A stretch of DNA of 58,308 bases from a virus (IMGVR_UViG_2778261696_000003), one strand, 5' to 3'. Numbered from the stretch's first letter, positions 15,299-36,604 are shown. The notes: generated by a model not told the origin, from the sequence alone. A program made the numbers and translations.

Positions 15299-16603
15299 AT
15301 GGCTATACATGCAACAACAATCCGTAATTTGCTCAATCAAGGTCCTATGACACCAAGACAATTGGTTGAAAGACTAGGTGTTAGCCAACCAACGATATCT
15401 AGAGCATTAAGAGATCTTGGTGATGAAATCGTTAGGATCGGAAATGGAAGATCTATTCAATATGCTTTACGAGACTCTTTTAGAGGATTCGAATCAGTCC
15501 CCATTTATCGTATAACTGAAGAGGGGTGTATTTGCGTTCTTGGTACTCTCATTCCGGTGAGGCCAGAAGGCTATGTTATGGTTGAGGAAGGGAAAAATAA
15601 CAGGCATAGCGATGGGTTACCTTGGTGGTTATTTGATATGCGTCCACAAGGCTTCCTTGGAAGAGCATATGCATCAGCATATGCTCTTGAACTTAACCTT
15701 CCCTCAAATCCAGAGCAATGGTCAGATACTGACGTGATCAAAGCCTTACTTAAGCATGGGCATGATGTTGTTGGTAATTTGTTAATTGGAGAGCAAGCAC
15801 GCACGCATTTTTTAGAGATGCAGCCTCCTGTTCCTGTTAATCGTGAAAGTGAATATCCTGTATTAGCTTTAGCTGCTGGTGAAGGTGATGTGCCCGGTTC
15901 ATCTGCTGGAGGTGAACAACCCAAATTTTGTACTTTCACAGAGCGTGGACATGTATTAGTGAAATTCTCTGCGCCTAACGACACCCCTATAAGTGAGCGT
16001 TGGAGAGATCTCTTGTTTGCTGAACATCTCGCATTAAAAGTTCTGGGGGTAGAAACAGAAGTTTTTGATTATAACGGTCAGAGATTCTTGGAAATTCCCC
16101 GATTTGATCGTGTTGGTCAACTAGGTCGGGTAGGTGTATTCTCACTTCGTGCACTTGATGCAGAATTTGTTGGGAATGCAAGAGCAACATGGCCCTTGCT
16201 GGTTAAAGAGTTGGTAAAAAATAAGTGCGTCCATCCTGATGCGATTATTATAGCAACAAGGCTATGGTCTTTTGGTTTGCTAATAGGCAATACCGATATG
16301 CATAATGGTAACCTATCGTTTATTAGTAGCCACGGACGCCCATATCATATTGCTCCAGCCTATGACATGTTACCTATGGGTTTTGCTCCACGCTCTGGGG
16401 GAGCAATATCTAATGAGCTTAGAAAAACAGCACTACCAGACTTTGTAAGTCGAAAAATATGGGATGAATCTCTTGAATTGGCTGAAAAATTTTATGCATT
16501 GGCCTGTGAGTCCGACAAATTCTCAGCTAACTTTACTCCATGTTTAGAAGCGCTACGCATCCACCTAGATGATTGTAAGATACGCATAGCCCGCCTGGCA
16601 TAA
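15299..16603 (+). CDS. HTH-HipA fusion Ser/Thr kinase (YjjJ/HipH-like HipA-family toxin)
   Basis: N-terminal HTH (TPRQLVERLGVSQPTISRALRDL), HipA-like core motifs (QPKFCTF...VLVKF; FDYNGQRFLEIPRFDRV; GNTDMHNGNLSF with DxHxxN catalytic loop). Start uncertain: TTG 15239, ATG 15257 or ATG 15299. Confidence 0.7.
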   Translation: MAIHATTIRNLLNQGPMTPRQLVERLGVSQPTISRALRDLGDEIVRIGNGRSIQYALRDSFRGFESVPIYRITEEGCICVLGTLIPVRPEGYVMVEEGKNNRHSDGLPWWLFDMRPQGFLGRAYASAYALELNLPSNPEQWSDTDVIKALLKHGHDVVGNLLIGEQARTHFLEMQPPVPVNRESEYPVLALAAGEGDVPGSSAGGEQPKFCTFTERGHVLVKFSAPNDTPISERWRDLLFAEHLALKVLGVETEVFDYNGQRFLEIPRFDRVGQLGRVGVFSLRALDAEFVGNARATWPLLVKELVKNKCVHPDAIIIATRLWSFGLLIGNTDMHNGNLSFISSHGRPYHIAPAYDMLPMGFAPRSGGAISNELRKTALPDFVSRKIWDESLELAEKFYALACESDKFSANFTPCLEALRIHLDDCKIRIARLA

Positions 16604-22215: not shown

Positions 22216-22818
22216 TTAATTTCCTGCTTTCAGTTGCTTAAGACGACGTTTGAGTTCGCCATTCCGTGCCTTTTCGTTATTGAGTCGGCCCGTCTCCTTA
22301 TCCAGCTTCGCCCGCAAATCAGTGATCTGCTGTTGATTGAAAGACACCGAATTCTGCGCGGACTTATAAGCGGCAACCACCTGAGCATTCCGCTGTTTTG
22401 CTTCTTGCAGGCGCTGAAAGTTGGATTTAACTGCCGGTTTCTTGTCTACCGGATTGGCAACACGCTTCGCTTTGGCGATCAGTGATTTCTGGAATTTTGC
22501 GGAGTTTTTGCGGGCCGCCTGTCCCATGACGGTACCAAGCGTCTTGATATCCGGCGACTGAGCGTTAGGAATAGCTTTTCCATTCAGTTTCACAGACGAT
22601 ATATCGCCAGTATCGTTTACCTGTATGGCAAGAATTTGTCCGTCGTTAAGAACCAGCTTTGCGGTTTTAACTTTAACGCCATCTTTCGTTGTTGCGCGGT
22701 TGCTGGAGTCAACCTCAATTACCGTAACACCGGTTTTATTGATCGCCGCGATAAGGGATTTCAGCCCCTTTTCATTAACCTGGTCAAAATCGACCGTTGC
22801 ATACTTATTTTTCGTCAT
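22216..22818 (-). CDS. hdf: Hdf-like protein, about 200 aa
   Basis: Second in-frame ATG has AGGA RBS; synteny upstream of darA. Confidence 0.45.
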   Translation of the reverse strand: MTKNKYATVDFDQVNEKGLKSLIAAINKTGVTVIEVDSSNRATTKDGVKVKTAKLVLNDGQILAIQVNDTGDISSVKLNGKAIPNAQSPDIKTLGTVMGQAARKNSAKFQKSLIAKAKRVANPVDKKPAVKSNFQRLQEAKQRNAQVVAAYKSAQNSVSFNQQQITDLRAKLDKETGRLNNEKARNGELKRRLKQLKAGN

Positions 22819-23248
22819 CTGACACATCCTGTGCGAGATTTATTACGTAACTTCTGCGGATTTGCTGAGTAACAGGGAAAATCCGATACAACGGGTTAAT
22901 GAACGAGTCGCCATGCGTAACCATGATGTTGAAATGCCACAGTCGCTCTCCTTTACCCATATATTCAGTGGGTATGTACAACCATTCACTGTTTTCGCCC
23001 TGTTCAGCCGACGTCAGACAACGTTGTTCACCTTCAATCACTGTCGTCGGCTTCTGAACATCGCGGATCCAATATCTGACCGTTGCGCCGCGCAAAAACG
23101 GGAATTTAGACCGGTACTTGAACGGCACCCGGATGAAACCCGGTTTAATTTCCACATCACCAAGTTCTAAATGCGTGATGTCCTTGCGTTTTAGCAAATA
23201 GCGATCGGCTAAGGCTAACGCAAGAACGCATACACCCCAGCCAATCAT
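22805..23248 (-). CDS. lydB: LydB-like antiholin candidate, 147 aa
   Basis: Synteny (lydA-lydB precede the dar genes in P1). Confidence 0.4.
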   Translation of the reverse strand: MIGWGVCVLALALADRYLLKRKDITHLELGDVEIKPGFIRVPFKYRSKFPFLRGATVRYWIRDVQKPTTVIEGEQRCLTSAEQGENSEWLYIPTEYMGKGERLWHFNIMVTHGDSFINPLYRIFPVTQQIRRSYVINLAQDVSDDEK

Positions 23249-23574
23249 TTCCCGCCTCCCTTTTTCACCAAACTTGTAAGAACATTCAGAATGCTATCGA
23301 TATTCACTCGTTTCATCCCTGAAATCACCTCATGACCGTTATTGCTGGCTATCGTTACCATTAAGTACGTAATTGATAACTCCCAGCCCTCGTGTTGCCC
23401 CAATAGGTACGCCACCGCGCCAGCTGTCACTGCAACAAAGATCTCCGTAACCAATCCCAACAAATTGCCAGACTGGCGACCGTCTCGGACATCCATCAGG
23501 AACGTGCCTATCCCACCAATTACTGAAAGCAGGAGCGCAATAGCAACTGGAGCTAATTCCTGTGTGTCAAGCAC
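23245..23574 (-). CDS. lydA: Holin (LydA-like), 109 aa
   Basis: Two or three hydrophobic helices and charged C-terminus (KKGGGK). Confidence 0.5.
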   Translation of the reverse strand: MLDTQELAPVAIALLLSVIGGIGTFLMDVRDGRQSGNLLGLVTEIFVAVTAGAVAYLLGQHEGWELSITYLMVTIASNNGHEVISGMKRVNIDSILNVLTSLVKKGGGK

Positions 23575-23641
23575 AAGTTCCCTCCTACGTTGTCAGGAGG
23601 TAATGGTATGCAAAGTAACTTCTCAACCGGTCATTTGTTGC

Positions 23642-23923
23642 TTAAGAGGCATTTCTATTGAGGTACGAATCGATAATCCTTTGTAACTTTTCAAGAATGA
23701 GCCTGTTATTGATGCTGCAAATAATAGTCACGCAATTCTGAAGACTTTCATCCATACCCTTATATTCCGCGAAATACATGCCTATAAAGCCTGCAAGTAC
23801 GGCAGCAATACACTCGGCCATCAATTGCCTGTATGACGCTTCGTAACGTTTTTCACGAACCCCATTCAGAAACGAATGCACCCCGCCAAGGATGGAGAGG
23901 AGCATTATTGTGAAATCACACAT
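23642..23923 (-). CDS. Holin-like small membrane protein, 93 aa
   Basis: Hydrophobic helices; position upstream of lydA. Confidence 0.4.
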   Translation of the reverse strand: MCDFTIMLLSILGGVHSFLNGVREKRYEASYRQLMAECIAAVLAGFIGMYFAEYKGMDESLQNCVTIICSINNRLILEKLQRIIDSYLNRNAS

Positions 23924-24050
23924 AACTATTTCCTTAATAGTGAATTAAATATCATTGGGAAACGGTATGTACTTTGTGATTTCCACACATACTGGTTTTT
24001 GTTAATTAAAATCCGCAGCTTGCTATAAATAACGATAGTGAGCAGAAAAT

Positions 24051-24350
24051 ATGCTAATAGGCTATGTACGCGTATCAACAAATGAACAAAACACTGCTTT
24101 ACAACGAAACGCTCTTGAAAGCGCAGGATGTGAGCTAATTTTTGAGGACAAGGCGAGTGGAAAAAAGGCTGAACGACCAGAGTGAAAAAGGCTTTTGATA
24201 GGTAAACTCTGGTCGTATGAAAGTTAAATTTGCGTGGGTGCAGCATGCGCTCACTCTTGAGGCATGAACGGTAATCATCTGATAACTTGTAGCTCGATTA
24301 TCCGGACGCACTGGAACCAGTCGATGCTTCCAGCGATCCAGATATTTCAT
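24051..24350 (+). pseudogene. cin: Decayed cin-type serine DNA invertase (Cin/Hin/Gin family) pseudogene
   Basis: Reads [34 protein letters not shown]... then stop at 24183-24185; downstream frames retain recognisable fragments (LVV*KLNLRGCSMRSL versus recalled Cin LVVWKLDRLGRSMKHL). Confidence 0.7.
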
Positions 24351-24358
24351 TAAATGGA

Positions 24359-24769
24359 CTACGCCTCCGGGAACGCTGGCCAATTGACATCTGGTGCAGT
24401 GCTGGTATCCGTTGCGGTCACCGCATCGATATAATCCAGCACAGCGTTAAGACGGGTGGTTTCAGCCTGCGTAAGATTCCGCCCGGCCTGTAATTTCAGT
24501 TGAATAAGACTAATGGAAGCCATTGCGGTATCAATCAGCGACTGTTTTTTCTGTTCAGCGTCAGCTACCAGTTCATCATGAGAACGTTCCGGAGTGGGTG
24601 GCGCAGTAAATCCCCCGTCTGAATACACCCAGCCGATTCCGGGCTGCTCACTGATATCAGAAATATTAATGAGCTGCTGATTATCCGGCACTGTGAATTC
24701 AGCCTCGCCATCCCAGACAATGACATTCACAACCATCCCATTTTCAATAACTGCATATGATGTATTCAT
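24359..24769 (-). CDS. Tail fibre assembly chaperone (U-like), 136 aa
   Basis: Tfa-type C-terminal motifs (QLKLQAGRNLTQAETTRLNAVLDYIDAV...WPAFPE); start ATG overlapping tail fibre stop. Confidence 0.65.
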   Translation of the reverse strand: MNTSYAVIENGMVVNVIVWDGEAEFTVPDNQQLINISDISEQPGIGWVYSDGGFTAPPTPERSHDELVADAEQKKQSLIDTAMASISLIQLKLQAGRNLTQAETTRLNAVLDYIDAVTATDTSTAPDVNWPAFPEA

Positions 24770-27700
24770 TATGCAAACTCCTCGATAATACAAATCCCTG
24801 CAGCGCCTTTCCCGCCCGTCATACTGGTTCCGCTATAACCGGCATCGTATGCACCACCGCCGCCCGAACCATATGCCCGACCGATAACGCCACCGCCAGC
24901 GCCTGCGCGACCACCGCCCCCCCAGAACGATGATCCTCCTTCACCACTGACGCTGATATTTCCGGACTGACCGTCACCTCCATGCCCACCAATAATGCGG
25001 ACATCACCAGTATTCGGCGCGCCTCCATTACCACCGTTCGTGTTTGTGACTCCTACTTTCCCGCCGCCTTCACCGCCAGGGGCTATTACCGTTCCGAACG
25101 AGCTATCACCGCCCTTGAGGCCGTTCGTCGCACCAACACCGCCGCCCCCACCTGCGCCGATAGTGACTGGATAACTATTCTGTGTCGGGGTCATTATTGA
25201 AATTATTGTCCCACCGGCCCCACCGCCAGCACCGAAAAACGTCTCGTTATTGGATGTAGCCTGGCAGCCACCACCTCCGCCACCGCCGCCCGTAATTGTG
25301 ACCCTGATTCGTTTTGTTCCTGGCGTCGGGGTATACGTACCTGATGAAGTGAAAACCCGGGTATTCACCAAACGCCCAACATATCCGCTTGAATCGCTCA
25401 GGCCAAGGTTAGCAGCAGTTAAAGTAATATTTGCAGAACCATCAAACTTAACACCGTTGATAGTGCGTGCAGTCTGTAGTTTCGTTGCGGTTGCGGCATT
25501 ACCGGTAGTGCTCTGATTACCTGCTTTATTCACGCCCGGCAGGTCGATATTGGCACTACCATCGAATGACACTCCGCCTATTGTGCGTGCTGTTTGCAGT
25601 TTTGTTGCAGTTGCAGCATTGCCGGTAGTGCTCTGATTACCTGTTTTATTCACGCCCGGCAGGTCGATATTGGCACTACCATCAAATGACACCCCGCCGA
25701 TTGTGCGTACTGTTTGCAGTTTCGTAGCGGTTGCAGCATTGCCGTTCAAACTACCATTGATGCCGCCAGTAACATTGAGTCCATTACCGATCGTAACAGT
25801 ACCATTGGCATTGTTAATGATAAGCGGCCTTAAATTATTATAGGTTCCCAGGCTGTTACCCGAATTGGTCAACATGAAATATGTGTTTGAACCATCGTTT
25901 CGGATAAAGAATCCGTAGTTTCCGTAGGCAATGCGCAGACCATTCGCCGATTTTGAAATGATCTCACCAGTAGCCGTTAAACCGCCGTTGAGATTTCCTC
26001 CGGTTATTGGTAATGCGCCGACATCCGTGGCGGTCGGTTTAATGTGCGAACTGTAAATTACATATACAGTTCCATCTGTCAGGCCTGTTGGTTTATTCGC
26101 TGTATAAGATGGTGATGTATGAATCGTTACGCTGGCGTTACTGGTATAATCCCACTGAATATTAACACGTGTGGTGTAATTACCTATTTCAACATAAACA
26201 TCATAGGTATCACCGGATGTATTCACCCATGCAAAATTAGTAAATCCAACCGATGTCCGTCGCCATAACGCACCAGTAAGACCTTTTGGATTCCCATTTC
26301 CCGCACGAAGAACAAGTTCAGATATACCAGCCTGCATAGGGGAGTTAACATTATATCCAGAACCACCAATCAGGCTTATGTAAACCACGGAACTGGACTG
26401 TGGCATGGTTACAGTTGCCAGCTTGAACCATCCAGTACCACCACTAAAAGACATTGTTGTTGAGTTGATCGTGCCTATAGACCTTGGAGTTAGCTCAATG
26501 TTTTTAGAACCGTCAAACAACACCCCATTTATAGTTCTAGCGGTTTGTAACTTGGTCGCTGTCGCTGCATTACCGGATGTATTCTGATTACCCGCAACGT
26601 TAACACCAGGTAAATTAATATTCGCAGTACCATCAAAGCTAACTCCGCCGATAGTTCTTGCCGTCTGTAGTTTTGTAGCAGTTGCCGCATTGCCAGTTGT
26701 ATTCTGATTGCCAGTGGCATTCACACCAGGAATGGAGTCCCTTGATGTATATACCTGCGCCCACGCTGACCATGCCGCATCAGTGTGATCTCTTCGGGAG
26801 CGAATGAAAACCGGCGCATGTGCACCGCTCGTACCACTCCAGCCAATAAGCAACTCGCCCTCACCAGCAGCACTCGCACCTTTCATGTGCAATACGTTGC
26901 CATACGCGGTCGGGTAGCTATTGTTGTACGCCTCATACATCTGCAATCCAGTAGAAGCACCTTGTGTTGTATCGGTGAGCGCAGTAACACGCCCTCTGGA
27001 CGCAATTGTTGGTATCGAAATGTTCGCAGAACCATCAAACTTAACACCGTTGATTGTGCGTGCTGTTTGCAGTTTTGTTGCAGTTGCGGCATTACCGGTA
27101 GTGCTCTGATTACCTGCTTTATTCACGCCCGGCAGGTCGATATTGGCACTACCATCAAATGACACCCCGCCGATTGTGCGTACTGTTTGCAGTTTCGTAG
27201 CGGTTGCAGCATTGCCGGTAGTGCTCTGATTACCTGCTTTATTCACGCCCGGCAGGTCGATATTGGCACTACCATCGAACGACACTCCGCCGATTGTGCG
27301 TGCTGTTTGCAGTTTTGTGGCGGTGGATGCATTACCTGTCAAAGATCCACTAAGAGCCACGGCACTAAGAGACTTAACACTTACATCCTGACCCCATCCG
27401 GAAACAACAACCTGACTCCACGCTGCCCAGCTTCCATTAACAACAAAGCGAACGTATATACGTTTTGTGTCGTTGCTGATCAGCGTTTGCATGTTCGCAT
27501 AATCCGAAGCAGAAACTTTGCGAGTCGACTCTACACGGAGCAAAAAGTTACCGTTTACGCCGTCAGGCTTGTTGGTGATATTTGCACCACCTCCAAAGGT
27601 TGGACAATAATAATATTTAATTGCCCCGACATCTGAGCTGATGGTCAGGTTGTTAAGATCAACCGTCTGGTCGCCAATTTTTTCCGGCTCGATGGCTCCT

Positions 27701-29193
27701 GCTATCCCGGCACTGAATGTAGCAGCAGCTGAAAACGCTGTCTTACCTTTGAAAGTCTGTTGAGAACTCCAGGTATTAGCTGTGCTCAACAGGGGGATCT
27801 TTTCGCCGCTGGTTCCGATTTCTCTTAAACCAAGGTATTGGATAACAGCCAGTGTGCTTGTTTTAGCCAGGATATCGCGACCGACTGACGTTAAATCAGT
27901 CTGGGAAACAGTGTCTGTACCGGTAAAGTACGGCAATTTATTTGCGCCTGTCGCAAGACCAGCAAGCGCGGTTAAAGTTGCATCCAGAGGCTGTTTGCCT
28001 GCCAGCGCATTTGTCATTGTTGTCGCAAAGTTCGGGTCATTGCCCAGTGCTGCTGCAAGCTCATTCAGGGTATCAAGAGCTTCAGGTGATGAGCCGACCA
28101 ATGCAGAGATAGCAGCTCTTACATAAGCGGTCGTAGCAATCTGCGTGTTATTCGTACCCTGTGCAGCGGTAGGCGCAGTAGGTATTCCCGTTAATGCAGG
28201 ACTTGCTAAAGGAGCTTTAAGAGCCAGAGCATTGTTGATAGTTGTGCTGAAATTCGGGTCGTTATTGATCGCAGCAGCTATTTCTTTAAGCGTATCCAGA
28301 GTGCCAGGTGCACCGTTGATAAGTGCCGTTATAGCTGCCTTAACAAAGGCTGTATTTGCGATCTGCGTGCTGTTTGTACCTTGCGCTGCCGTCGGCGCGG
28401 TTGGCGTTCCTGTCAGACTCGGGCTTTCTATTGGCGCTTTGGTATCAGCCAGCTCTTTTACAGACTTAACGGCTTTAGGGGTAGCCGCCATTGTTTCGCT
28501 GTCGCTGTTAGTTGCGCTACTGAGCTGAACTAATCCCTTTTGTGTTGTGCTTGCATCCTGCGCCGTATACTTGCTTTTAGCCAGATCGTAGGCTTTTTTA
28601 ACCGCCAGCGAACTTGCAGCGACATCACTTCTGGTACTGGTTACAGAGTCGGAAATTTCAATGCCTATCGCGAGATCGATGCGGTCGGATACATCTATCA
28701 TTTCCTTAGTAATAGCAGATACGCCAGCAGGGATATTCACCGTACAAACAAGCAGTTCTCCATCTCCTAACTGATATGAATCGGTATAGGTTCTGGCAAC
28801 AAATTCAGCCGCATGAATATGTGACGCGGTATTAACCTGATAAGAATCTTCTCCAAGGAGGTATCTTCCCTTCAGCACAATTGCATATTTCTTACCTGCG
28901 CTAAGTGCAAGAGAAATATCCTTACGCTGCTGAATAGTTACCTGGTAGAATTCACCAATATTCACTGACGCCGCGCCAGCGGTTTTATCACCATCCACTG
29001 AGGTGATTAACAGGTTCATCCCACCGCCAGGCTTAGGAAAAAAACCGGCATAAAATCCAGGGTCAACAATTCCCCTGAATTTTCGGTTTAGCGCGGCTGA
29101 CAGATATGGTTCGTGGTATTGCACATCAGCCACCAGAGCCAACGACTCGGGTGATGGGTAAGTAACCGATGTGACAACTGTAACGTCATTCAT
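24769..29193 (-). CDS. Tail fibre protein (S-like), about 1474 aa, with internal sequence repeats and Gly-rich C-terminal domain
   Basis: ATG at 29193 with AAGGA RBS, 12 bp after R-like stop; repeated peptide GNAATATKLQTARTIGGVSFDGSANIDLPGVN; C-terminal GGGGGG-rich region. Confidence 0.8.
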   Translation of the reverse strand: MNDVTVVTSVTYPSPESLALVADVQYHEPYLSAALNRKFRGIVDPGFYAGFFPKPGGGMNLLITSVDGDKTAGAASVNIGEFYQVTIQQRKDISLALSAGKKYAIVLKGRYLLGEDSYQVNTASHIHAAEFVARTYTDSYQLGDGELLVCTVNIPAGVSAITKEMIDVSDRIDLAIGIEISDSVTSTRSDVAASSLAVKKAYDLAKSKYTAQDASTTQKGLVQLSSATNSDSETMAATPKAVKSVKELADTKAPIESPSLTGTPTAPTAAQGTNSTQIANTAFVKAAITALINGAPGTLDTLKEIAAAINNDPNFSTTINNALALKAPLASPALTGIPTAPTAAQGTNNTQIATTAYVRAAISALVGSSPEALDTLNELAAALGNDPNFATTMTNALAGKQPLDATLTALAGLATGANKLPYFTGTDTVSQTDLTSVGRDILAKTSTLAVIQYLGLREIGTSGEKIPLLSTANTWSSQQTFKGKTAFSAAATFSAGIAGAIEPEKIGDQTVDLNNLTISSDVGAIKYYYCPTFGGGANITNKPDGVNGNFLLRVESTRKVSASDYANMQTLISNDTKRIYVRFVVNGSWAAWSQVVVSGWGQDVSVKSLSAVALSGSLTGNASTATKLQTARTIGGVSFDGSANIDLPGVNKAGNQSTTGNAATATKLQTVRTIGGVSFDGSANIDLPGVNKAGNQSTTGNAATATKLQTARTINGVKFDGSANISIPTIASRGRVTALTDTTQGASTGLQMYEAYNNSYPTAYGNVLHMKGASAAGEGELLIGWSGTSGAHAPVFIRSRRDHTDAAWSAWAQVYTSRDSIPGVNATGNQNTTGNAATATKLQTARTIGGVSFDGTANINLPGVNVAGNQNTSGNAATATKLQTARTINGVLFDGSKNIELTPRSIGTINSTTMSFSGGTGWFKLATVTMPQSSSVVYISLIGGSGYNVNSPMQAGISELVLRAGNGNPKGLTGALWRRTSVGFTNFAWVNTSGDTYDVYVEIGNYTTRVNIQWDYTSNASVTIHTSPSYTANKPTGLTDGTVYVIYSSHIKPTATDVGALPITGGNLNGGLTATGEIISKSANGLRIAYGNYGFFIRNDGSNTYFMLTNSGNSLGTYNNLRPLIINNANGTVTIGNGLNVTGGINGSLNGNAATATKLQTVRTIGGVSFDGSANIDLPGVNKTGNQSTTGNAATATKLQTARTIGGVSFDGSANIDLPGVNKAGNQSTTGNAATATKLQTARTINGVKFDGSANITLTAANLGLSDSSGYVGRLVNTRVFTSSGTYTPTPGTKRIRVTITGGGGGGGGCQATSNNETFFGAGGGAGGTIISIMTPTQNSYPVTIGAGGGGGVGATNGLKGGDSSFGTVIAPGGEGGGKVGVTNTNGGNGGAPNTGDVRIIGGHGGDGQSGNISVSGEGGSSFWGGGGRAGAGGGVIGRAYGSGGGGAYDAGYSGTSMTGGKGAAGICIIEEFA
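25430..27390. repeat. Three clusters of tandem 120-bp coding repeats inside the tail fibre gene (about 25430-25790, 26500-26740, 27020-27390)
   Basis: Repeat starts read at 25441/25561/25681, 26507/26627 and 27031/27151/27271, period 120 bp. Confidence 0.7.
27990..28430. repeat. About 219-bp coding repeats (two to three copies) in the tail fibre gene
   Basis: TTTGCGATCTGCGTG... unit recurs near 28133 and 28353; encodes repeated ...AAISALVGSSPEALDTLNELAAA... peptide. Confidence 0.5.
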
Positions 29194-29204
29194 CAAGCAT
29201 ATCC

Positions 29205-29639
29205 TTATGCTGTAGTCGTGTTTATGGCCATAACTGCGGTATATGTTTTGCCCACATACAGCGAGTCTTCCTGGACACAAATAATGGCGATTGGCTTGTT
29301 CTCGTTATCCAGAACAACCAGAGTGTTGAATGGGTAGTTTTTCCCTTTCTGCAACTGGCTTTGATCAAGGTCCATTCGGACAGTAATTATCCCGCCTGAG
29401 TAGGTTGGGACGAGGTTGATGGTGCAAAATTTACTGGTCAGTTCTGCCAGCTCGAAAGCCTTTGGCAGTTCTCCAATCTCATAAGTGCCATCTCCTTTCT
29501 TAGTAACCAGTGAACTGGTACCGAAAACGGCCTTGCTGATTAAAAATCGAGAGCCTTTGTTAATGGACGATTCAGCGCGCCGCTGATAGTAATAGTCCAA
29601 CAACTGACTCTTATAGAGGTTTGTTGAGACGTCAGACAT
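29205..29639 (-). CDS. Tail fibre-associated structural protein (R-like), 144 aa
   Basis: Immediately upstream of tail fibre gene in same operon; synteny with P1 R-S-U. Confidence 0.45.
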   Translation of the reverse strand: MSDVSTNLYKSQLLDYYYQRRAESSINKGSRFLISKAVFGTSSLVTKKGDGTYEIGELPKAFELAELTSKFCTINLVPTYSGGIITVRMDLDQSQLQKGKNYPFNTLVVLDNENKPIAIICVQEDSLYVGKTYTAVMAINTTTA

Positions 29640-29717
29640 GATTTTCCCTAATCAATGTTGTGAAGCCTCATTGTAAGAGAAGTAACTTGTCACCCCGCCC
29701 TGCGGACGGGGTGATTG

Positions 29718-30557
29718 TCAGGCGTCGCTATCCAGCAACAAATCATCTGCGCGTGTGCGATCAAACGTAGGTGTCGCTTTCACAATAGTGCCACCAGGCG
29801 TTGCGGTGATCGGGGCGCTAATCGACGTAACTCCAGTAAGCGAAGTTGTATCCGAAGTTTCAAACCAGCAGTACGCTTTTTCGGTATCAGAAATCTCGTT
29901 CAAAGTGATCATGTCGGCCTGTTCATTCACAACAACCGACAAATAGAGCGTAAGCCCATCAAACACTATATGCAGTGGCAGTAGAGGCTTTACGAACTGA
30001 TTAAACTTTCTGAGAATTTCTTCTGTAATTGCGGACTGATCTATCGTGCCAGTAATACCCATTGTCCGGGCCAGGTCGTTTATGGGAATACTGATCATCC
30101 CTCTGGAAGTCAGAAACATCTCACCGAATGTGCCGCCGGTAGTTTCCAGTGTGCTTTCTGGTATTAGAACTGTGCCATAGGGATGACGTTCAAGGTCCAC
30201 CGGTGCATATATCGGATCCCATAAAACAGAAATACCATTAAATTCGCGGTAAATTGTCTGGTTTATAGGGCGTTCAGTCCCCTTAAAGTGAATCTCATCA
30301 AGCCGCTGTTGTAACAACATCGGAACGGAAGATGAGTTTGAGGTTCTGATAGTAAAGAACTGGCCAAGTTCATTTGTCCTGGTCTCCAGATCCTCCTTGC
30401 TCATGGAAAAAATAGACTTCCGGTTGGTAATTCGCTCCAACCATGGGTCAACAAAGGTGTCCATCATTGACTGAACCAAATCAGCCAATGATTTATAGAG
30501 CAATGACTTTTGCTTAGCTGATGTAAGCCGATTATTAAACCAGGAACGTTGCATCAC
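29718..30557 (-). CDS. Baseplate/tail structural protein, 279 aa
   Basis: Overlapping operon with downstream baseplate-like genes; synteny. Confidence 0.45.
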   Translation of the reverse strand: MMQRSWFNNRLTSAKQKSLLYKSLADLVQSMMDTFVDPWLERITNRKSIFSMSKEDLETRTNELGQFFTIRTSNSSSVPMLLQQRLDEIHFKGTERPINQTIYREFNGISVLWDPIYAPVDLERHPYGTVLIPESTLETTGGTFGEMFLTSRGMISIPINDLARTMGITGTIDQSAITEEILRKFNQFVKPLLPLHIVFDGLTLYLSVVVNEQADMITLNEISDTEKAYCWFETSDTTSLTGVTSISAPITATPGGTIVKATPTFDRTRADDLLLDSDA

Positions 30558-31987: not shown

Positions 31988-32343
31988 AGCACCACGTCCT
32001 GTGTGATAGTTATATCCCTGATACGAATGGATATTTTCAACTTATCAAAAGCATCTCCCTCGGCTACTGACAAGCCAGAAATCGGTATGTCAGGTAAATC
32101 TACCGTCAGTTTTTGCAACAGCATTGCCTCAACCGCAATTTGAACATGCGACAAGTTGGTCGGTTCGTGTTTAAACTGCGGTAAAACATTGCCCCATGAC
32201 GGATCTCCGTATACCTCACCCTGATAAGTGTTTAGCCACTCATATAAACGAGCGCCCCAGGCCTCCTCCTGGGACTCATACGTTTTTACGCCGGATAACT
32301 CCAGCGTCAGCAAAGGATCAATTTCGTTATTGTTGGCCATCAA
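31984..32343 (-). CDS. Small baseplate-associated protein, 119 aa
   Basis: Translationally coupled between sit-like gene and baseplate gene. Confidence 0.4.
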   Translation of the reverse strand: MMANNNEIDPLLTLELSGVKTYESQEEAWGARLYEWLNTYQGEVYGDPSWGNVLPQFKHEPTNLSHVQIAVEAMLLQKLTVDLPDIPISGLSVAEGDAFDKLKISIRIRDITITQDVVL

Positions 32344-34880
32344 TCAACTCTCGCGTAGTCATTCATCAACGGATCATCAATTGACAGTGGTACCGTGCGC
32401 ATAACGCCCGGCTGAGGCGTGCTGACCTTTACGACAGTTCCCTGGCCTTTCGCCGAGTCTTTGGTGTGCTCTTCAATCCTGGCAAGCAATGAGGTCATCT
32501 GCGCAAACAGCCGCTTCGTTTCACCATCAAGTGAAACGGTATTATCAGCCAACTGCATTGTCGGCTTGGCACCGGAACCGCCAAGGTCACTAATAACCTG
32601 CCCGTCTATCTGCATACGACCGGTTGGTTGCTGCAAATCGTTGGCGGCAGTCGTCACCTTGGACGTGGAGGCTGGTTCAGTCGCATTATTTTTCCGCATC
32701 CCCGGCGAGTTGCGGAGTTTATCGAATAGTCCATCAATCCCCATTTGTGCGCCGAGTTGGTCAAAGTAACTTGAGTTGCTGGCCACCGGACGCGCCTCTT
32801 CAACTGGCATCGGAGTATCAACATACACATTGCCAGCTGCTGTTGCGGTCCCCTTCCCTCGTGCACGTTCTTCGAGCGTTCCCTGAACGACTTCCCGACG
32901 CATACCCCGGCCATTCATGAATTTGTTGACCAGATCGTTAACGCCAACAGCATTGCCGATTTTGTCTACCAGACCGCCTTTCTCAAACGGGCTATCACCA
33001 GGGGTAAACGCCAGGCCAGTAGACTGATCGATAACAGCGTTATCAGGCAGTGGTCCCCTCACTCCATATTGCGCCCCACCCTGTGCTCCTGCTCCAGGTG
33101 TATAGATTTCACCACCTAAATAGCGAGCACGATGAGTATTGACCTTGATCGCGTACTCACGGTTTTCTTTCGATAAGTCACCTGTGCCTTTTTTCCACTT
33201 ATTGATAGTGCCAAACCCAGCGTTATATGCAGTGATGGCCTCGTTTAAGTCTCCATTGGCTTGCTTCAGATACTTGCTCATGAGAAGAGCCGCAGCTTCT
33301 GCCGATTTCACAGGATCAAACGATTCACCTTCAGCTAAGCCAGTCTCTTCACGAGCAATCCCCGTGAACTGAAACATTCCCAGAGCACCGGTTTGGGATT
33401 TTGCATACGGATTACCACCAGATTCAGTTGCAGCAATCGCGTAAAGAGTGCCTTCTGGAAGACCATATTTATTCTCTAGTTCAGCAAAATACGGAGCCAA
33501 CTTATCGAGATTTGCCTTACCTTCAGATCCAAGACTTCCGACTTTTACATCCAAGCGGCCATTGTTGTAGGTATCCGCAGCTTTCTGAATGTCATTCCTG
33601 GTGCCAGTGGTATTAAGCGACGATGATGACGAGCTATTTTGACCAATAGCTTTATCAATTTTCTGCAACGCGCTATTGCCCGTTTCTACGGCATTTGCAT
33701 TGATAATCTGATTCGCAGTTTCTTTAACTGTTTTATTGCTATCTTTCGCCGTGTCCAGTGCCGCATTTATCACGCGGGTAACAATATTAGTCTGTTTGGC
33801 ATCGGATTCAGTTTTAGAATCAGATGTCTCCTGGTGGCTATTAACCGGAGCTTTTAACTCTGGAGTGATTTCTTTCGCATTAGCCTCGCTCTTAACCGGA
33901 GCTTTTAACTCTGGAGCGATTTCTTTCGCATTAGCCTCGCTATTAACCGGAGCTTTTAACTCTGGAGTGATTTCTTTCGCATTAGCCTCGCCGATCGGAT
34001 TGGGTATTTTTGATACAATCATTGCCGCAGGGGTATTTTTAACGGCATCAACCGCTGCATCTAATGCTTTACCAGGTAAATTTTTAACCCCATCCCAAAT
34101 ATTACCAGCCGCCTCTTTAATGTGTTTCCCTGGGTTCTTAATGAAATCAATTGCACTATCAATTGCATCACTGAAAACCTGTTTCAGGTTATCAACAGTA
34201 AAGAAGTCTTTGATGGCATCCAGCTTTTCAAGCAGCTTATTAGATGTATCGCTAAACCATGCTGAAACAGCATCACCAATCTTTGCTGTGTAATCTTCGA
34301 ACTTGGTAGAAATGGTGTCGCCAAGGTTAGAAATATATGTTTCTAAGTTGGTAATCCCACTATCAATGGCCTGGGCAATACTTTCCGTCGAAAATGATTG
34401 CAACATATTGCCGATATCCTCAAATCCAAGTGATTTGAGAACCTCACCAATGGCGCTGCTAATACCAGATACCAGTCCCCCCATATCAAGAACATTGGCT
34501 AACGTATAAGCGGCTTTTTGCTGGAATGATGGATCTTGTCCTGATTTAAGCCCAAACGCTCGACGTTGCGCTTCTGTATCATTCCAACCGGTTACCGCAT
34601 CATAAATACCTCCAGCCACTGTGCCGACTAAGGGAATTGCGCGTAACGCCCCTTTACCAACTGCCTTTAATCCAAGTTTACCTGCTGCCCGGGCAGCCAA
34701 ATCTCCACCTTCATGGGCGATAGTCTTCTTGCCACCACCGCGTAGCATTCCTACAAGTTTCTTTGCCCCCAGAGCGCCAAAAGCGAGTGCTCCAGCTTTT
34801 TTCAGCATGCCACGCCCCATTAACAACGACGCGACGCCACCGGCCCCCTTCCCTAACAGGCTAAATAGTTTGGACAGCAA
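32340..34880 (-). CDS. sit: Sit-like tail protein with lytic transglycosylase domain, 846 aa
   Basis: SLT-type motif region (GALGMFQFTGIAREETG...AYNAGFGTINKW) and Gly-rich N-terminus. Confidence 0.65.
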   Translation of the reverse strand: MLSKLFSLLGKGAGGVASLLMGRGMLKKAGALAFGALGAKKLVGMLRGGGKKTIAHEGGDLAARAAGKLGLKAVGKGALRAIPLVGTVAGGIYDAVTGWNDTEAQRRAFGLKSGQDPSFQQKAAYTLANVLDMGGLVSGISSAIGEVLKSLGFEDIGNMLQSFSTESIAQAIDSGITNLETYISNLGDTISTKFEDYTAKIGDAVSAWFSDTSNKLLEKLDAIKDFFTVDNLKQVFSDAIDSAIDFIKNPGKHIKEAAGNIWDGVKNLPGKALDAAVDAVKNTPAAMIVSKIPNPIGEANAKEITPELKAPVNSEANAKEIAPELKAPVKSEANAKEITPELKAPVNSHQETSDSKTESDAKQTNIVTRVINAALDTAKDSNKTVKETANQIINANAVETGNSALQKIDKAIGQNSSSSSSLNTTGTRNDIQKAADTYNNGRLDVKVGSLGSEGKANLDKLAPYFAELENKYGLPEGTLYAIAATESGGNPYAKSQTGALGMFQFTGIAREETGLAEGESFDPVKSAEAAALLMSKYLKQANGDLNEAITAYNAGFGTINKWKKGTGDLSKENREYAIKVNTHRARYLGGEIYTPGAGAQGGAQYGVRGPLPDNAVIDQSTGLAFTPGDSPFEKGGLVDKIGNAVGVNDLVNKFMNGRGMRREVVQGTLEERARGKGTATAAGNVYVDTPMPVEEARPVASNSSYFDQLGAQMGIDGLFDKLRNSPGMRKNNATEPASTSKVTTAANDLQQPTGRMQIDGQVISDLGGSGAKPTMQLADNTVSLDGETKRLFAQMTSLLARIEEHTKDSAKGQGTVVKVSTPQPGVMRTVPLSIDDPLMNDYARVD

Positions 34881-34909
34881 GCCGCCCTTCTTTTTCCCGG
34901 TGTTTTTGG

Positions 34910-36604
34910 CTATCTGATCAAGGGCGCTGAGAATCTTGTCATTGCCCTCTTTAATTTCGCTGGTCTGCTCCTGAAGTTCCTGAACTGTCCGTTTTTGGGT
35001 GTTAACCTGAACGACATCGGCACTATTTTGCGATTTACGCCTAAAAAAACTTTTCTACGGCTGTTATCGTCATTGCCACGAATCACATCGGCAATAGACT
35101 TTCTGGCACCATTAAGCGATCCACCAACTTCTTTTGATATCCCGCCAAGCTCCTTCCCTGCTGCCCACAATGGACCAGCAACGGCATAACCTAACGCATC
35201 AACGGCACGAGTCTCTGAAGGGTTACCTATGCCTTCAGCTACTTTTGACAGTTTTTTTAATAAACCTGATTCAGCATTTAGACGCTCATCATCCTCTTTG
35301 CGCCTGGCCTTTTCAGCACGTTCAGCACGGGCATCTTCCGCTGCGGCCTTACTCCCTGACTTTCCAATAAAACGACCACGCGCATCGCGTTGGTTTTGGC
35401 TTTTTTGCGCACCGCCTTTTTGATCGAACATTTCGCGAGCGTGTTCGGCTGCTTCGGTCCGTTGTGCCTTTATATCCTCTGGTATAGCCTTCCTGCGTCG
35501 TTTTTTACCCTTTGGTGTAGTTGATTTGGCCTGCTGTTCCTGTTGAGCAATGCCCTCCTGAACTACACGAGAAACGTCCCCTAAATTAAGCCGTTTCATT
35601 GCGTCAACAATAGGGTCTACTGATGGCGCATTGGCCACAAAGTCTGGCCGGGAATTTTCGATTGTTCGATTTAATGCCGACACACTGCGAGATACTGGGT
35701 CAACCGTTGCAACGCGTTCCCCTTTCAAATCACGAGCGAGTTTGACCGTTTCTAACCGCTGTGCTTTAACATCCTCTGTTATTGCCTCTCTTCGTCTATT
35801 TGGGGGATTGTGCGCTGTTGGTGCAGCCTGCTGTTCACGGTTAGTGACTTTGTCCTCCCGTATACGAGAAACGTCCCCTAAATTAAGCCGTTTCATTGCG
35901 TCAACAATAGGGTCTACTGATGGCGCATTGGCCACAAAGTCTGGCCGGGAATTTTCGATTGTTCGATTTAATGCCGACACACTGCGAGATACTGGGTCAA
36001 CCGTTGCAACGCGTTCCCCTTTCAAATCACGAGCGAGTTTGACCGTTTCTAACCGCTGTGCTTTAACATCCTCTGTTATTGCCTCTCTTCGTCTATTTGG
36101 GGGATTGTGCGCTGTTGGTGCAGCCTGCTGTTCACGGTTAGTGACTTTGTCCTCCCGTATACGAGAAACGTCCCCTAAATTAAGCCGTTTNNNNNNNNNN
36201 NNNNNNNNNNNNNNNNNNNNNNNNNNNNNNNNNNNNNNNNNNNNNNNNNNNNNNNNNNNNNNNNNNNNNNNNNNNNNNNNNNNNNNNNNTGTTGGTGCAG
36301 CCTGCTGTTCACGGTTAGTGACTTTGTCCTCCCGTATACGAGAAACGTCCCCTAAATTAAGCCGTTTTATTGCGTCAACAATAGGGTCCACTGATGGCGC
36401 ATTGGTCACAAAGTCAGGACGTGAATTTTCGATTGTGCGATTTAATGCCGACACACTGCGAGATACTGGGTCAACAGTTGCAACTCGTTCCCCTTTCAAA
36501 TCTTCAACAGCTTCCCGGATACCTGCAAGCTCTTCCAGCTCTTTTGCACTGGCGGTTTCAACTGTCCTTATAACATCGTCAATGTTGGCGTTTTTTCTTT
36601 CCAT
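34910..36604 (-). CDS. Repeat-containing tape-measure-like protein (N-terminal module preceding sit), at least 564 aa; interrupted by assembly gap
   Basis: ORF contains X run from the N gap; 99-aa peptide unit repeated at least three times; basic coiled-coil C-terminal region. Confidence 0.5.
   Translation of the reverse strand: MERKNANIDDVIRTVETASAKELEELAGIREAVEDLKGERVATVDPVSRSVSALNRTIENSRPDFVTNAPSVDPIVDAIKRLNLGDVSRIREDKVTNREQQAAPTXXXXXXXXXXXXXXXXXXXXXXXXXXXXXXXXXKRLNLGDVSRIREDKVTNREQQAAPTAHNPPNRRREAITEDVKAQRLETVKLARDLKGERVATVDPVSRSVSALNRTIENSRPDFVANAPSVDPIVDAMKRLNLGDVSRIREDKVTNREQQAAPTAHNPPNRRREAITEDVKAQRLETVKLARDLKGERVATVDPVSRSVSALNRTIENSRPDFVANAPSVDPIVDAMKRLNLGDVSRVVQEGIAQQEQQAKSTTPKGKKRRRKAIPEDIKAQRTEAAEHAREMFDQKGGAQKSQNQRDARGRFIGKSGSKAAAEDARAERAEKARRKEDDERLNAESGLLKKLSKVAEGIGNPSETRAVDALGYAVAGPLWAAGKELGGISKEVGGSLNGARKSIADVIRGNDDNSRRKVFLGVNRKIVPMSFRLTPKNGQFRNFRSRPAKLKRAMTRFSAPLIR
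35500..36500. repeat. Tandem array of 297-bp (99-codon) repeats, at least 3.3 copies, copy number unresolved because of gap
   Basis: Unit starts at 35568, 35865 and 36162 (period 297); partial copy resumes after the N run. Confidence 0.8.
36191..36289. other. Assembly gap (99 N) inside the tandem repeat array
   Basis: Run of n characters in the sequence. Confidence 0.99.

What the first reader, a model, noticed from the sequence alone, without database searches (positions are those of the whole stretch)
24769..29193. Tail fibre gene built from tandem coding repeats with a glycine-rich distal domain
Three clusters of 120-bp repeats and a second family of about 219-bp repeats are embedded in a single 1474-codon fibre gene, ending in a long Gly-rich C-terminal segment. 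Such modular repeats are substrates for recombinational length and specificity variation, and the architecture differs from what I recall of the shorter P1 S protein. This gene is the likely host-range determinant.
Basis: seen in the sequence. Interest (0 to 1): 0.5.

Follow-up and report, generated by a model that had tools for sequence, protein, structure and literature searches.

The report
P1-type tail fibre with repeat ladder
This is the long tail-fibre gene of a P1-like phage-plasmid of E. coli. The switchable end of the P1 fibre has been replaced by a fixed, longer, borrowed end that carries a glycine-rich receptor-binding tip, and its 40-residue repeats gain and lose copies in nature. 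It is a real and tidy example of a known kind of gene, not a new one.

Summary
Window 24769-29193 (minus strand) is one 1474-codon gene. It holds eight 120-bp (40-aa) units in three clusters (3+2+3), two 222-bp units, and a 204-aa C-terminus that is 33% glycine.

It is gpS of a P1-like phage-plasmid (100% identical to pEC12-3). Residues 1-483 are P1's constant part Sc, and the 222-bp units are P1's annotated b1/b2 elements. A perfect cixR site survives, but cin is truncated and cixL, Sv', U' and U are gone, so the fibre can no longer invert.

The replacement 3.5 kb encodes knob domains separated by the repeat clusters. It ends in a TNF-like/glycine-rich tip homologous to cyanophage Pam3 gp24, followed by an intact 136-aa Tfa chaperone that RefSeq calls a pseudogene.

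Among 120 close homologues, clusters 1 and 3 vary from 2-4 and 2-5 units, with at least 17 and 27 independent changes. Cluster 2, whose units share only 8 exact nucleotides, changed once. This fits homology-dependent unequal recombination.

The receptor and host range remain untested. Novelty is low: a new member of a known kind.

The parts
24769..29193 (-). Tail-fibre gene S (gpS homologue), 1474 aa plus stop
   Evidence: ORF and translation. Identical to RefSeq WP_077251300.1 'tail fiber protein' in pEC12-3. PHROG and Pfam tail-fibre hits.
27746..29193 (-). Constant part Sc plus the first 87 nt of the P1 variable part (aa 1-483). By homology this is the end that attaches to the baseplate.
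   Evidence: 95% nt identity to P1 36394-37841. 95% aa identity over residues 1-483.
27994..28437 (-). Two 222-bp (74-aa) repeats, equal to P1 'repeated elements' b1 (28216-28437) and b2 (27994-28215)
   Evidence: P1 annotation mapped onto the window. 69% aa and 64% nt identity. A natural variant has three copies (P0132).
27820..27845 (+). Fossil cixR, the Cin crossover site, lying in frame inside the gene
   Evidence: 26/26 identical to P1 cixR. No second site with up to 3 mismatches in the window or in the rest of the plasmid.
27337..27744 (-). Knob domain 1 (aa 484-619). First module of the acquired distal part.
   Evidence: P1 homology ends at 27746. 82-94% nt identical to chromosomal prophage fibres that NCBI names 'pyocin knob domain-containing'.
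26977..27336 (-). Repeat cluster 1: 3 x 120 bp (aa 620-739)
   Evidence: Natural range 2-4 units, at least 17 independent changes.
26695..26976 (-). Knob domain 2 (aa 740-833)
   Evidence: Constant 94-aa spacer in all 120 homologues. About 70% identical to the P1 Sv region that follows P1's single repeat.
26455..26694 (-). Repeat cluster 2: 2 x 120 bp (aa 834-913), with diverged units
   Evidence: The units share only 8 exact nt. One copy-number change among 120 homologues.
25744..26454 (-). Domain 3 plus a T4 gp34 / Mu S-like trimerisation domain (aa 914-1150)
   Evidence: Pfam Gp34_trimer at aa 1044-1126, 2.5e-28. PDB sequence hits to Mu S 5yvq and T4 gp34 4uxe. 26030-26466 is 96% identical to a P2-like prophage fibre.
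25384..25743 (-). Repeat cluster 3: 3 x 120 bp (aa 1151-1270). Also the junction where distal modules are exchanged.
   Evidence: Natural range 2-5 units, at least 27 changes. Homology breakpoints of relatives fall at 25426-25583.
24772..25383 (-). Distal tip: TNF-like plus glycine-rich (TG) domain, the presumed receptor-binding domain (aa 1271-1474)
   Evidence: Pfam Gly_rich_2 scores 41.6 bits against a cut-off of 24.3. A profile hits Pam3 gp24 at E=1.6e-13. AF2 model has pLDDT 92.9. Foldseek finds the Pam3 fibre at E=3.9e-9 with TM 0.69, then the Bxb1 tail tip and ALK/LTK.
24359..24769 (-). Tail-fibre assembly chaperone (short Tfa, 136 aa). Its ATG overlaps the S stop codon (TAATG) and a GAGGAG sequence lies just upstream.
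   Evidence: Sequence. Pfam Caudo_TAP and phrog_188. The ORF is intact in diverged prophage copies, with dN/dS 0.11-0.19. Homologues of 135-138 aa are widespread. The model's only significant fold match is the Pam3 chaperone gp25.
24051..24255 (+). Remnant of the invertase gene cin. The reading frame breaks after codon 44, and DNA homology to P1 cin ends at about 24255.
29205..29639 (-). Gene R, the P1 tail-fibre structure or assembly protein, first gene of the operon
   Evidence: phrog_2032 at 8e-84. P1 annotation.
29670..29688 (-). Late promoter LPs of the R-S operon (by homology)
   Evidence: P1 LPs annotation mapped onto the window. One mismatch in the 36 nt compared.

Best explanation
This is the gpS long tail fibre of a P1-family phage-plasmid.

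**Proximal third (aa 1-483).** This is the P1 constant part. It is expressed with R from the late promoter LPs.

**Loss of the switch.** In P1 the fibre continues into a segment that Cin inverts. Here a 3.5-kb block (24256-27745) has replaced the 3' part of cin, cixL, Sv', U', U and most of Sv. The fibre is therefore fixed. One perfect cixR and a 44-codon cin stub are left as fossils.

**Acquired part.** It is a string of globular modules: a pyocin-type knob, a second knob, a third domain, and a T4 gp34 / Mu S-like trimerisation domain. Three clusters of a 40-aa shaft repeat separate them.

**Tip and chaperone.** The fibre ends in a TNF-like plus glycine-rich domain. In this domain conserved Gly motifs form the scaffold and the variable loops are presumed to bind the receptor. 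The translationally coupled 136-aa Tfa downstream is its cognate chaperone, which folds and trimerises the tip, as in the Pam3 gp24-gp25 pair. The same tip and Tfa cassette circulates in P2-like and e14/Mu-tail-like E. coli prophages.

**What the repeats do.**
- Adjacent units that share 39-60 exact nucleotides undergo unequal homologous recombination or slippage. This gives in-frame +/-40-aa length variants.
- The repeats are shared between fibres of different phages, so they act as homology patches at which distal modules are swapped or deleted.

**Shown versus inferred.** Shown: the anatomy, the homologies, the loss of the switch, the natural copy-number variation, and its link to unit identity. 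Inferred: the recombination mechanism itself, chaperone dependence, receptor binding, and any effect of fibre length.
For: **P1 identity and loss of the switch.**
- P1 homology boundaries, the cin stub and the perfect cixR.
- No invertase gene and no second cix site in the rest of the plasmid.
- The window region is 100% identical to plasmid pEC12-3, and eight further complete plasmids carry the full-length region at 96.6-100% identity.
- Venturini et al. 2019 (PMC6906374) reported a truncated cin in the related plasmid pSvP1 and noted that the P1-like plasmids they studied lack a complete C segment. pSvP1 carries this fibre type with 6 units.

**Tip.**
- Pfam Gly_rich_2.
- Profile hit to Pam3 gp24 at E=1.6e-13, end to end.
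- AF2 model pLDDT 92.9.
- Foldseek hits to the Pam3 fibre, the Bxb1 tail tip and the ALK/LTK TG domain.
- The Gly motifs are invariant and the loops are variable among 155 distinct E. coli tip sequences.
- The Pam3 structure and the role of its chaperone: PMC9608196.

**Tfa.**
- TAATG overlap with the S stop and an upstream GAGGAG sequence.
- Intact ORF in prophage copies that are 87% nt identical, with dN/dS 0.11-0.19.
- 135-138-aa homologues are widespread.
- The only significant fold match is Pam3 gp25.

**Repeats.**
- Unit identities and exact shared stretches of 60, 39 and 8 nt.
- Architectures range from (2,2,2) to (3,2,5) units.
- At least 17, 1 and 27 independent changes in clusters 1, 2 and 3. 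Proteins identical in all 1219 non-repeat columns differ by one unit.
- Records from complete-genome assemblies show 2, 3 and 4 units in cluster 1.
- P0244 (983 aa) is exactly the product expected from recombination between clusters 1 and 3, and lies in the same P1 gene context.
- Module sharing with P2-like and e14-like prophages.
Against: - No experiment links this fibre to adsorption, and the receptor is unknown.
- Part of the copy-number ladder, and the single 983-aa deletion variant (one draft contig), could come from short-read assemblers mis-resolving 120-bp units that are 91-99% identical.
- The parsimony counts rest on an NJ tree of a gene that itself recombines, so they are rough.
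- This particular plasmid may not make particles. Its sit (tape-measure-like) gene is split by a frameshift.
- The 40-aa repeat has no solved structure. The only PDB sequence match is the C-terminal region of the phage L Dec protein, so calling it a 'shaft' is an inference.
- The Foldseek TM-score of the Tfa model to gp25 is low (0.39). The match is significant, but the relative position of the two domains differs.
Confidence: 0.8

Rival explanations
1. The repeats, or their number, are an assembly artefact of this record.
For: Units of clusters 1 and 3 are 91-99% identical, and the two clusters share a 99-nt exact stretch. Short-read assemblers can mis-resolve sequence of this kind.
Against: Nine complete plasmid records from different hosts and countries carry the region at the same length with 96.6-100% identity. 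The exact protein is on 21 contigs. All variants are in frame and differ by whole units.
Confidence: 0.03
2. The gene is a decaying relic in a defective plasmid prophage. The repeat variation is neutral noise with no role in infection.
For: cin is truncated. sit is frameshifted in this plasmid. In pXH987-OQX an IS26 element cuts the same gene. Venturini et al. discuss impaired P1-like plasmids.
Against: The 1474-codon ORF is intact, as are more than 100 variants of it. The tip has dN/dS 0.23 and the chaperone 0.11-0.19. The coupled RBS and start codon are preserved. The late promoter is conserved.
Confidence: 0.12
3. The glycine-rich end is a disordered low-complexity tail, or a T-even gp38-type adhesin fused on, rather than a Pam3-type trimeric tip.
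For: The composition is 33% Gly. Single-sequence phmmer against the PDB gives only E=0.8. According to the Pam3 paper, S16 gp38 shares the glycine-rich lattice.
Against: The AF2 model has pLDDT 92.9 and pTM 0.85. The profile E-value to Pam3 gp24 is 1.6e-13 over the whole domain. Foldseek ranks the Pam3 fibre first, and S16 gp38 is not among the matches listed. Pfam finds no GP38 hit at E<=0.01. The domain is covalently part of the fibre and is followed by a gp25-like chaperone.
Confidence: 0.05
4. The distal part can still be switched, by an invertase supplied in trans acting on the retained cixR.
For: cixR is 26/26 identical to P1. E. coli chromosomes often carry Pin-type invertases, and a recombinase remnant sits next to the same cassette in a prophage.
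Against: There is only one cix site in the whole 91-kb plasmid with up to 3 mismatches. There is no alternative Sv' or U' segment to bring into frame. Perfect conservation of 26 nt at 95% background identity is not unusual (about 1 chance in 4, my calculation). The cix-like core at 25352-25365 lacks the flanking half-site bases.
Confidence: 0.03

Closest known systems
Bacteriophage P1 gpS / gpU tail-fibre operon with the Cin-invertible C segment (also P7, p15B Min)
   Same: Same operon position (LPs-R-S). Residues 1-483 are 95% identical, including the a and b repeated elements and cixR. P1's own variable part also begins with one copy of the 40-aa repeat.
   Different: There is no working cin, no cixL, and no alternative Sv'/U'. 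The distal part is about 990 aa rather than about 500 aa. It has a different module set, a different tip (glycine-rich, not Mu S-like) and a shorter chaperone.
P1-like plasmids pSvP1, pJIE250-3 and pTZ20_1P (Venturini et al. 2019, PMC6906374)
   Same: pSvP1 carries the same fibre type with a truncated cin. [quoted passage not shown]
   Different: pSvP1 has 6 units (2,2,2; 1394 aa) against 8 here. In the passages read, the paper does not describe the repeat architecture, the tip fold or the chaperone.
Cyanophage Pam3 tail fibre gp24 with chaperone gp25 (PDB 7YFW, 7YPX; PMC9608196)
   Same: The tip is homologous over the whole TNF-like plus glycine-rich domain, right to the C-terminal strand. 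The chaperone gene lies downstream, and the predicted chaperone has the same two-domain build: an N-terminal beta domain and a C-terminal helical domain.
   Different: Pam3 gp24 is a minimal fibre of 280-289 aa with an N-terminal helical bundle. Here the tip caps a 1270-aa modular shaft. Sequence identity is only about 26% for the tip and about 22% for the chaperone.
T-even gp38 adhesin (Salmonella phage S16, PDB 6F45) and the ALK/LTK TG domain
   Same: Glycine-rich motifs pack into a lattice, with variable loops at the distal end. This is stated in the Pam3 paper. ALK and LTK appear as weaker fold matches.
   Different: gp38 is a separate monomeric protein that caps gp37. No Pfam GP38 hit was found, and S16 gp38 is not among the fold matches listed.
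Mosaic tail fibres of P2 (gpH), Mu (S/U), lambda (Stf/Tfa), e14 (StfE/StfP) and T4 (gp34/gp37) that share sequence motifs. From my own memory: Haggard-Ljungquist et al. 1992; Sandmeier et al. 1992; Sandmeier 1994.
   Same: The Gp34_trimer / Mu S-like domain, the Phage_fiber_2 repeats and the tip-plus-Tfa cassette are shared with P2-like and e14-like prophages at 87-96% nt identity.
   Different: Here the shared 40-aa motif is amplified into three tandem clusters, and their copy number is polymorphic among near-identical fibres.

Membership tests
P1 gpS tail fibre (Punavirus) | N-terminal constant part Sc homologous to P1 gpS | tested here: met
   95% nt and 95% aa identity over aa 1-483.
P1 gpS tail fibre (Punavirus) | Located in the LPs-R-S operon, between the baseplate genes and the lyd/dar genes | tested here: met
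   R, gene 16 and bplA lie upstream. lydC, lydA, lydB and a DarA-family gene lie downstream. LPs is conserved.
P1 gpS tail fibre (Punavirus) | Cin-invertible C segment: intact cin, cixL plus cixR, and alternative Sv'/U' | tested here: not met
   cin is reduced to a 44-codon stub. Only cixR is present. There is no Sv'/U', and no invertase gene elsewhere in the plasmid.
Gly_rich_2 (PF21722) / Pam3 gp24-type TNF-like plus glycine-rich fibre tip | Sequence match above the curated threshold, and to the solved member | tested here: met
   Pfam 41.6 bits against a cut-off of 24.3. Profile against Pam3 gp24 gives E=1.6e-13.
Gly_rich_2 (PF21722) / Pam3 gp24-type TNF-like plus glycine-rich fibre tip | Fold: a beta-sandwich followed by a lattice of glycine-rich strands, at the extreme C-terminus | tested here: met
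   AF2 pLDDT 92.9. Foldseek top hit is the Pam3 fibre, TM 0.69. The domain is C-terminal in almost all representatives.
Gly_rich_2 (PF21722) / Pam3 gp24-type TNF-like plus glycine-rich fibre tip | Cognate Tfa-type chaperone encoded immediately downstream | tested here: met
   A 136-aa Caudo_TAP protein with a coupled start. Its fold match is Pam3 gp25.
Gly_rich_2 (PF21722) / Pam3 gp24-type TNF-like plus glycine-rich fibre tip | Binds the host receptor through the distal loops | not testable with these tools
   Only indirect support: variable positions cluster in the loops between invariant Gly motifs.
T-even gp38 adhesin | A separate adhesin protein that caps the fibre, belonging to the GP38 family | tested here: not met
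   The domain is fused to the fibre. No Pfam GP38 hit at E<=0.01. S16 gp38 is not among the Foldseek matches listed.
Caudo_TAP tail-fibre assembly proteins (lambda Tfa / Mu U) | Family match, plus an intact and selected ORF | tested here: met
   Pfam 79.5 bits against a cut-off of 22.1. dN/dS 0.11-0.19. 135-138-aa homologues are common. It lacks about 25-42 N-terminal profile positions, which probably explains the RefSeq pseudogene flag.
Tandem-repeat contingency locus (in-frame copy-number variation) | Copy number polymorphic among otherwise identical alleles, always in frame | tested here: met
Tandem-repeat contingency locus (in-frame copy-number variation) | High-frequency switching within a clone, with a phenotypic consequence | not testable with these tools
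   This needs single-clone long-read sequencing and adsorption assays.

The most novel reading that the evidence does not exclude
After losing the Cin switch, this fibre lineage may use its two high-identity repeat clusters as a fast, reversible length dial. RecA-dependent gain and loss of 40-aa units on a multicopy plasmid prophage would produce mixed populations of virions with fibres of different reach. This could match hosts that differ in O-antigen or capsule depth. The same repeats would serve as docking points for capturing new tips from resident prophages. In that reading, a recombinational contingency system has replaced a site-specific one.
Probability: 0.15. Interest if true: 0.55.

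Novelty: new member of a known kind. Interest (0 to 1): 0.3.

Why it matters
P1-like phage-plasmids are common carriers of resistance genes in E. coli, and their tail fibre sets which cells they can reach.

This locus shows one common way the P1 host-range switch is lost: it is replaced by a fixed fibre assembled from modules that circulate among P2-like, e14-like and lambdoid prophages.

The repeat ladder has a built-in control. The cluster with low unit identity almost never changes. That makes it a clean natural example of homology-dependent length variation in a structural virion protein. It is also a warning for annotation and assembly pipelines. The chaperone is wrongly flagged as a pseudogene, and many fragments of the tip are named 'carbohydrate kinase'.

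The tip and Tfa cassette is a ready candidate for retargeting P1-based delivery vectors. None of this changes current concepts.

Tried and rejected
1. The longer mechanical ORF from the TTG at 29280 (1503 aa). Rejected: the P1 gpS start MNDVTVV aligns at 29193, and the extension overlaps the end of R.
2. A second cix-like core at 25352-25365 (AAAACCCGGGTATT), found with a degenerate 14-nt pattern. The flanking half-site bases do not match cix, so I treat it as chance.
3. Minus-strand ORFs 23926-24246 and 24135-24383. They overlap the cin remnant, and the one scanned (23926-24246) has no Pfam hit. I treat them as spurious.
4. Single-sequence PDB searches of the tip and of the Tfa gave nothing significant. 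Only the profile and the predicted folds connected them to Pam3.
5. PDB searches with the 40-aa repeat found only the C-terminal region of the phage L Dec protein, so no structure is available for the repeat.
6. NCBIfam gave no hit for the fibre or the Tfa.
7. A literature search for PF21722 / Gly_rich_2 returned only plant papers. The P2-pseudotyping and RBPseg papers only cite the S16 gp38 work.
8. Counting copy number from megablast spans in complete genomes worked only in part, because pieces from clusters 1 and 3 are joined.
9. GC content shows no sharp foreign-DNA signal beyond the Gly-codon-rich tip.
Full report
**1. Checking the observation**

The minus strand carries one ORF that ends at 24769. 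Taken mechanically it runs up to a TTG at 29280, but the ATG at 29193 gives 1474 codons starting MNDVTVV, which is the start of P1 gpS.

A motif scan finds eight 40-aa units with the consensus GNAATATKLQTARTIGGVSFDGSANIDLPGVNKAGNQSTT. They lie in three clusters: aa 620-739 (3 units), 834-913 (2 units) and 1151-1270 (3 units). Tandem Repeats Finder and the repeat finder detect clusters 1 and 3 independently. They also detect a 300-nt stretch that is 93% identical between those two clusters.

At the DNA level the four 'full' units of clusters 1 and 3 are 91-99% identical. The last unit of each cluster diverges in its second half, where it runs into the next domain. The two units of cluster 2 are only 54% identical to each other. 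The best off-diagonal 120-nt identity is 93%, against at most 47.5% in 100 codon shuffles.

The second family is 222 bp (74 aa) x 2, at 27994-28437, with 69% aa identity. The last 204 residues are 33% glycine.

The region is 96.6-100% identical at full length in nine complete plasmid records from different hosts and countries. The exact protein is found on 21 contigs.

**2. What the window is, and what happened at this locus**

The window is part of an E. coli P1-like phage-plasmid. This region is 100% identical to pEC12-3, NZ_CP060935.1. Comparison with phage P1 shows two blocks of homology:

- Window 27746-30000 is 95% identical to P1. This block covers the late promoter LPs, gene R, the constant part Sc of gene S, the cixR site, and 87 nt beyond it.
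- Window 22785-24255 is 97% identical to P1. This block covers lydB, lydA, lydC and the first 217 nt of cin.

The 222-bp repeats are therefore P1's own annotated 'repeated elements b1/b2'.

Between the two blocks, 3.5 kb (24256-27745) replaces P1's 4.5 kb, which holds the rest of cin, cixL, Sv', U', U and most of Sv. The reading frame of cin breaks after codon 44. The 26-bp cixR is 26/26 identical to P1 and lies in frame at 27820-27845. No second site with up to 3 mismatches exists in the window or in the remaining 33 kb of the plasmid. That remainder also encodes no serine invertase.

The fibre is therefore fixed. Venturini et al. 2019 reported a truncated cin in the related plasmid pSvP1 and noted that the P1-like plasmids they studied lack a complete C segment (PMC6906374). 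pSvP1 carries the same fibre type with six units.

**3. Anatomy of the acquired part**

From proximal to distal the acquired part consists of:

- **Knob 1 (aa 484-619).** It is 82-94% nt identical to chromosomal prophage fibres that NCBI names 'pyocin knob domain-containing'.
- **Cluster 1.**
- **Knob 2 (94 aa).** It is about 70% identical to the P1 Sv region that follows P1's single copy of the repeat.
- **Cluster 2.**
- **A 237-aa stretch.** Its second half is the T4 gp34 / Mu S-like trimerisation domain (Pfam 2.5e-28; PDB 5yvq and 4uxe).
- **Cluster 3.**
- **The glycine-rich tip.**

Fifty-six PHROG families hit the protein, most of those listed annotated as tail-fibre or tail proteins.

The 40-aa repeat has no solved structure. 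A profile of the units matches only the C-terminal region of the phage L decoration protein Dec (E=6.9e-6). Calling the repeat a trimeric shaft element is therefore an inference.

**4. The tip and its chaperone**

*The tip.* Pfam places the tip in Gly_rich_2, at 41.6 bits against a cut-off of 24.3. An exhaustive search finds 8049 cluster representatives at E<=0.001, and in almost all of them the domain sits at the extreme C-terminus.

A profile built from 28 diverse members hits the cyanophage Pam3 fibre gp24 at E=1.6e-13, end to end. The AlphaFold model is confident, with pLDDT 92.9 and pTM 0.85. Its best structural matches are the Pam3 fibre (E=3.9e-9, TM 0.69), then mycobacteriophage Bxb1 tail-tip proteins, then the TNF-like/glycine-rich domain of ALK and LTK.

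In Pam3 this domain is the proposed receptor-binding end. Its conserved Gly motifs form a lattice, its distal loops are variable, and it needs the Tfa-like chaperone gp25 (PMC9608196). Among 155 distinct E. coli tip sequences the Gly motifs are invariant, and variation clusters in a few loops.

*The chaperone.* Directly downstream, an ATG overlaps the S stop codon (TAATG), with a GAGGAG sequence just upstream. It opens a 136-aa Caudo_TAP protein. RefSeq flags this gene as a pseudogene 'missing N-terminus'. Four lines of evidence say the gene is intact:

- The same ORF is intact in prophage copies that are 87% identical in DNA, with dN/dS 0.11-0.19.
- Homologues of 135-138 aa are widespread, including in the lytic phage Goslar.
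- The predicted structure has an N-terminal beta domain and a helical hairpin.
- Its only significant fold match is Pam3 gp25 (E=3.8e-4).

The cassette of tip plus short Tfa occurs about 500 times in E. coli chromosomes. Two examples were examined: a P2-like prophage, and a prophage with an e14-like stfP gene and a Mu-type baseplate that sits next to an invertase remnant.

**5. What the repeats do**

*Copy-number variation.* Among the 120 closest full-length homologues the spacers between clusters are constant at 94 and 237 aa. The number of units is not constant: cluster 1 has 2-4, cluster 2 has 2-3, and cluster 3 has 2-5. This gives a ladder of 1394, 1434, 1474, 1514 and 1554/1555 aa. One variant has three b units instead of two.

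Several pairs of proteins are identical in all 1219 non-repeat alignment columns and differ by exactly one unit. On a neighbour-joining tree of the non-repeat parts, parsimony needs at least 17 changes in cluster 1, 27 in cluster 3, and only 1 in cluster 2.

This tracks sequence identity. Adjacent units share exact stretches of 60 nt in cluster 1, 39 nt in cluster 3, and only 8 nt in cluster 2. As I recall, the minimal length for efficient RecA recombination is about 25 nt. Cluster 2 therefore acts as a built-in control, and the pattern fits homology-dependent unequal recombination or slippage.

Records from assemblies at complete-genome level also show 2, 3 and 4 units in cluster 1.

*Deletion between clusters.* Clusters 1 and 3 share a 99-nt exact stretch. 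The deletion product expected from recombination between them is 1474 - 491 = 983 aa, consisting of Sc, knob 1, four units and the tip. Such a protein exists as P0244, in the same P1 gene context. It comes from a single draft contig, so assembly collapse is not excluded.

*Module exchange.* Junctions fall at or next to the repeats:

- Homology of many relatives to this gene starts at 25426-25583, inside cluster 3.
- The 1566-aa class has an extra 132-aa domain between cluster 3 and the tip.
- pB188 has a different tip after its repeats.
- A P2-like fibre joins aa 900-1059 directly to the tip at about aa 1253.

**6. Comparison with what is known, and verdict**

The gene is a member of the P1 gpS family by its N-terminal part and its operon position. 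It fails the 'invertible C segment' feature. Its tip and chaperone belong to the Pam3 gp24/gp25 type and not to the separate T-even gp38 adhesins.

Mosaic fibres that exchange modules at shared motifs have been known since the early 1990s (my own recollection of Haggard-Ljungquist 1992 and Sandmeier 1992/1994). Loss of the Cin switch in P1-like plasmids has been published. The glycine-rich tip fold is solved.

Two things appear to be undescribed in the literature I could search:

- the population-level +/-40-aa ladder, with its dependence on unit identity;
- the correction of the chaperone annotation.

Both are modest. The receptor, the effect of fibre length, and whether this plasmid still makes particles are untested. 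On the last point, its sit gene is split by a frameshift.

Verdict: a real, well-explained, ordinary-to-mildly-interesting tail-fibre gene, and a new member of a known kind. Interest 0.3.

Noticed in passing
window 24359-24769 (-): RefSeq annotates the tail-fibre assembly gene as a pseudogene 'missing N-terminus', both here and next to the same tip in chromosomal prophages. It is an intact 136-aa ORF with a coupled start, it is under purifying selection, and 135-138-aa homologues are widespread.
   Followed up: yes
window 32340-36604 (-): The sit homologue (tape-measure / transglycosylase) is split into two ORFs in different frames (34910-36604 and 32340-34880) and is flagged as frameshifted in RefSeq. 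This is either a real defect or a sequencing error. If real, this plasmid may not produce virions.
   Followed up: partly
window 35567-36190 and 33837-33991: The sit gene contains a perfect 297-nt tandem repeat (2.1 copies, 100% match, with a further 70% copy at 36291-36587) and a 51-nt repeat x 3. This is a second virion gene in the window with in-frame coding repeats, possibly affecting tail length.
   Followed up: no
window 52549-52719: A cluster of short direct repeats containing ATGTGTGCTGGAGGGAA. From memory, they look like the RepA-binding iterons of the P1 plasmid replicon (incA/incC).
   Followed up: no
window about 15300-16603 (locus L001 1-1304): A HipA-family toxin gene (yjjJ) is annotated as cargo next to the dar genes of the phage-plasmid.
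   Followed up: no
P0008-P0120; loci L007, L008: Hundreds of chromosomal 308-aa ORFs made up of this glycine-rich tip are named 'carbohydrate kinase' in public databases. They look like fragments of prophage tail-fibre genes, some next to invertase remnants, so the name is probably an annotation error.
   Followed up: partly
locus L006 (pXH987-OQX, NZ_CP102674.1) 8375-9079: In a sister plasmid, an IS26 element that brings the oqxAB resistance genes cuts the same fibre gene after the repeats. This shows one way that P1-like plasmids lose their fibre.
   Followed up: partly
window 25352-25365: A cix-like core (AAAACCCGGGTATT) lies at the junction between cluster 3 and the tip. The flanks do not match cix half-sites, so it is probably chance. 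It was not compared with the pix or gix sites of the donor prophages.
   Followed up: partly
P0501: The lytic phage vB_EcoM_Goslar encodes a 138-aa homologue (69% identity) of the short Tfa. This suggests that the same tip and chaperone cassette also occurs outside temperate phages.
   Followed up: no
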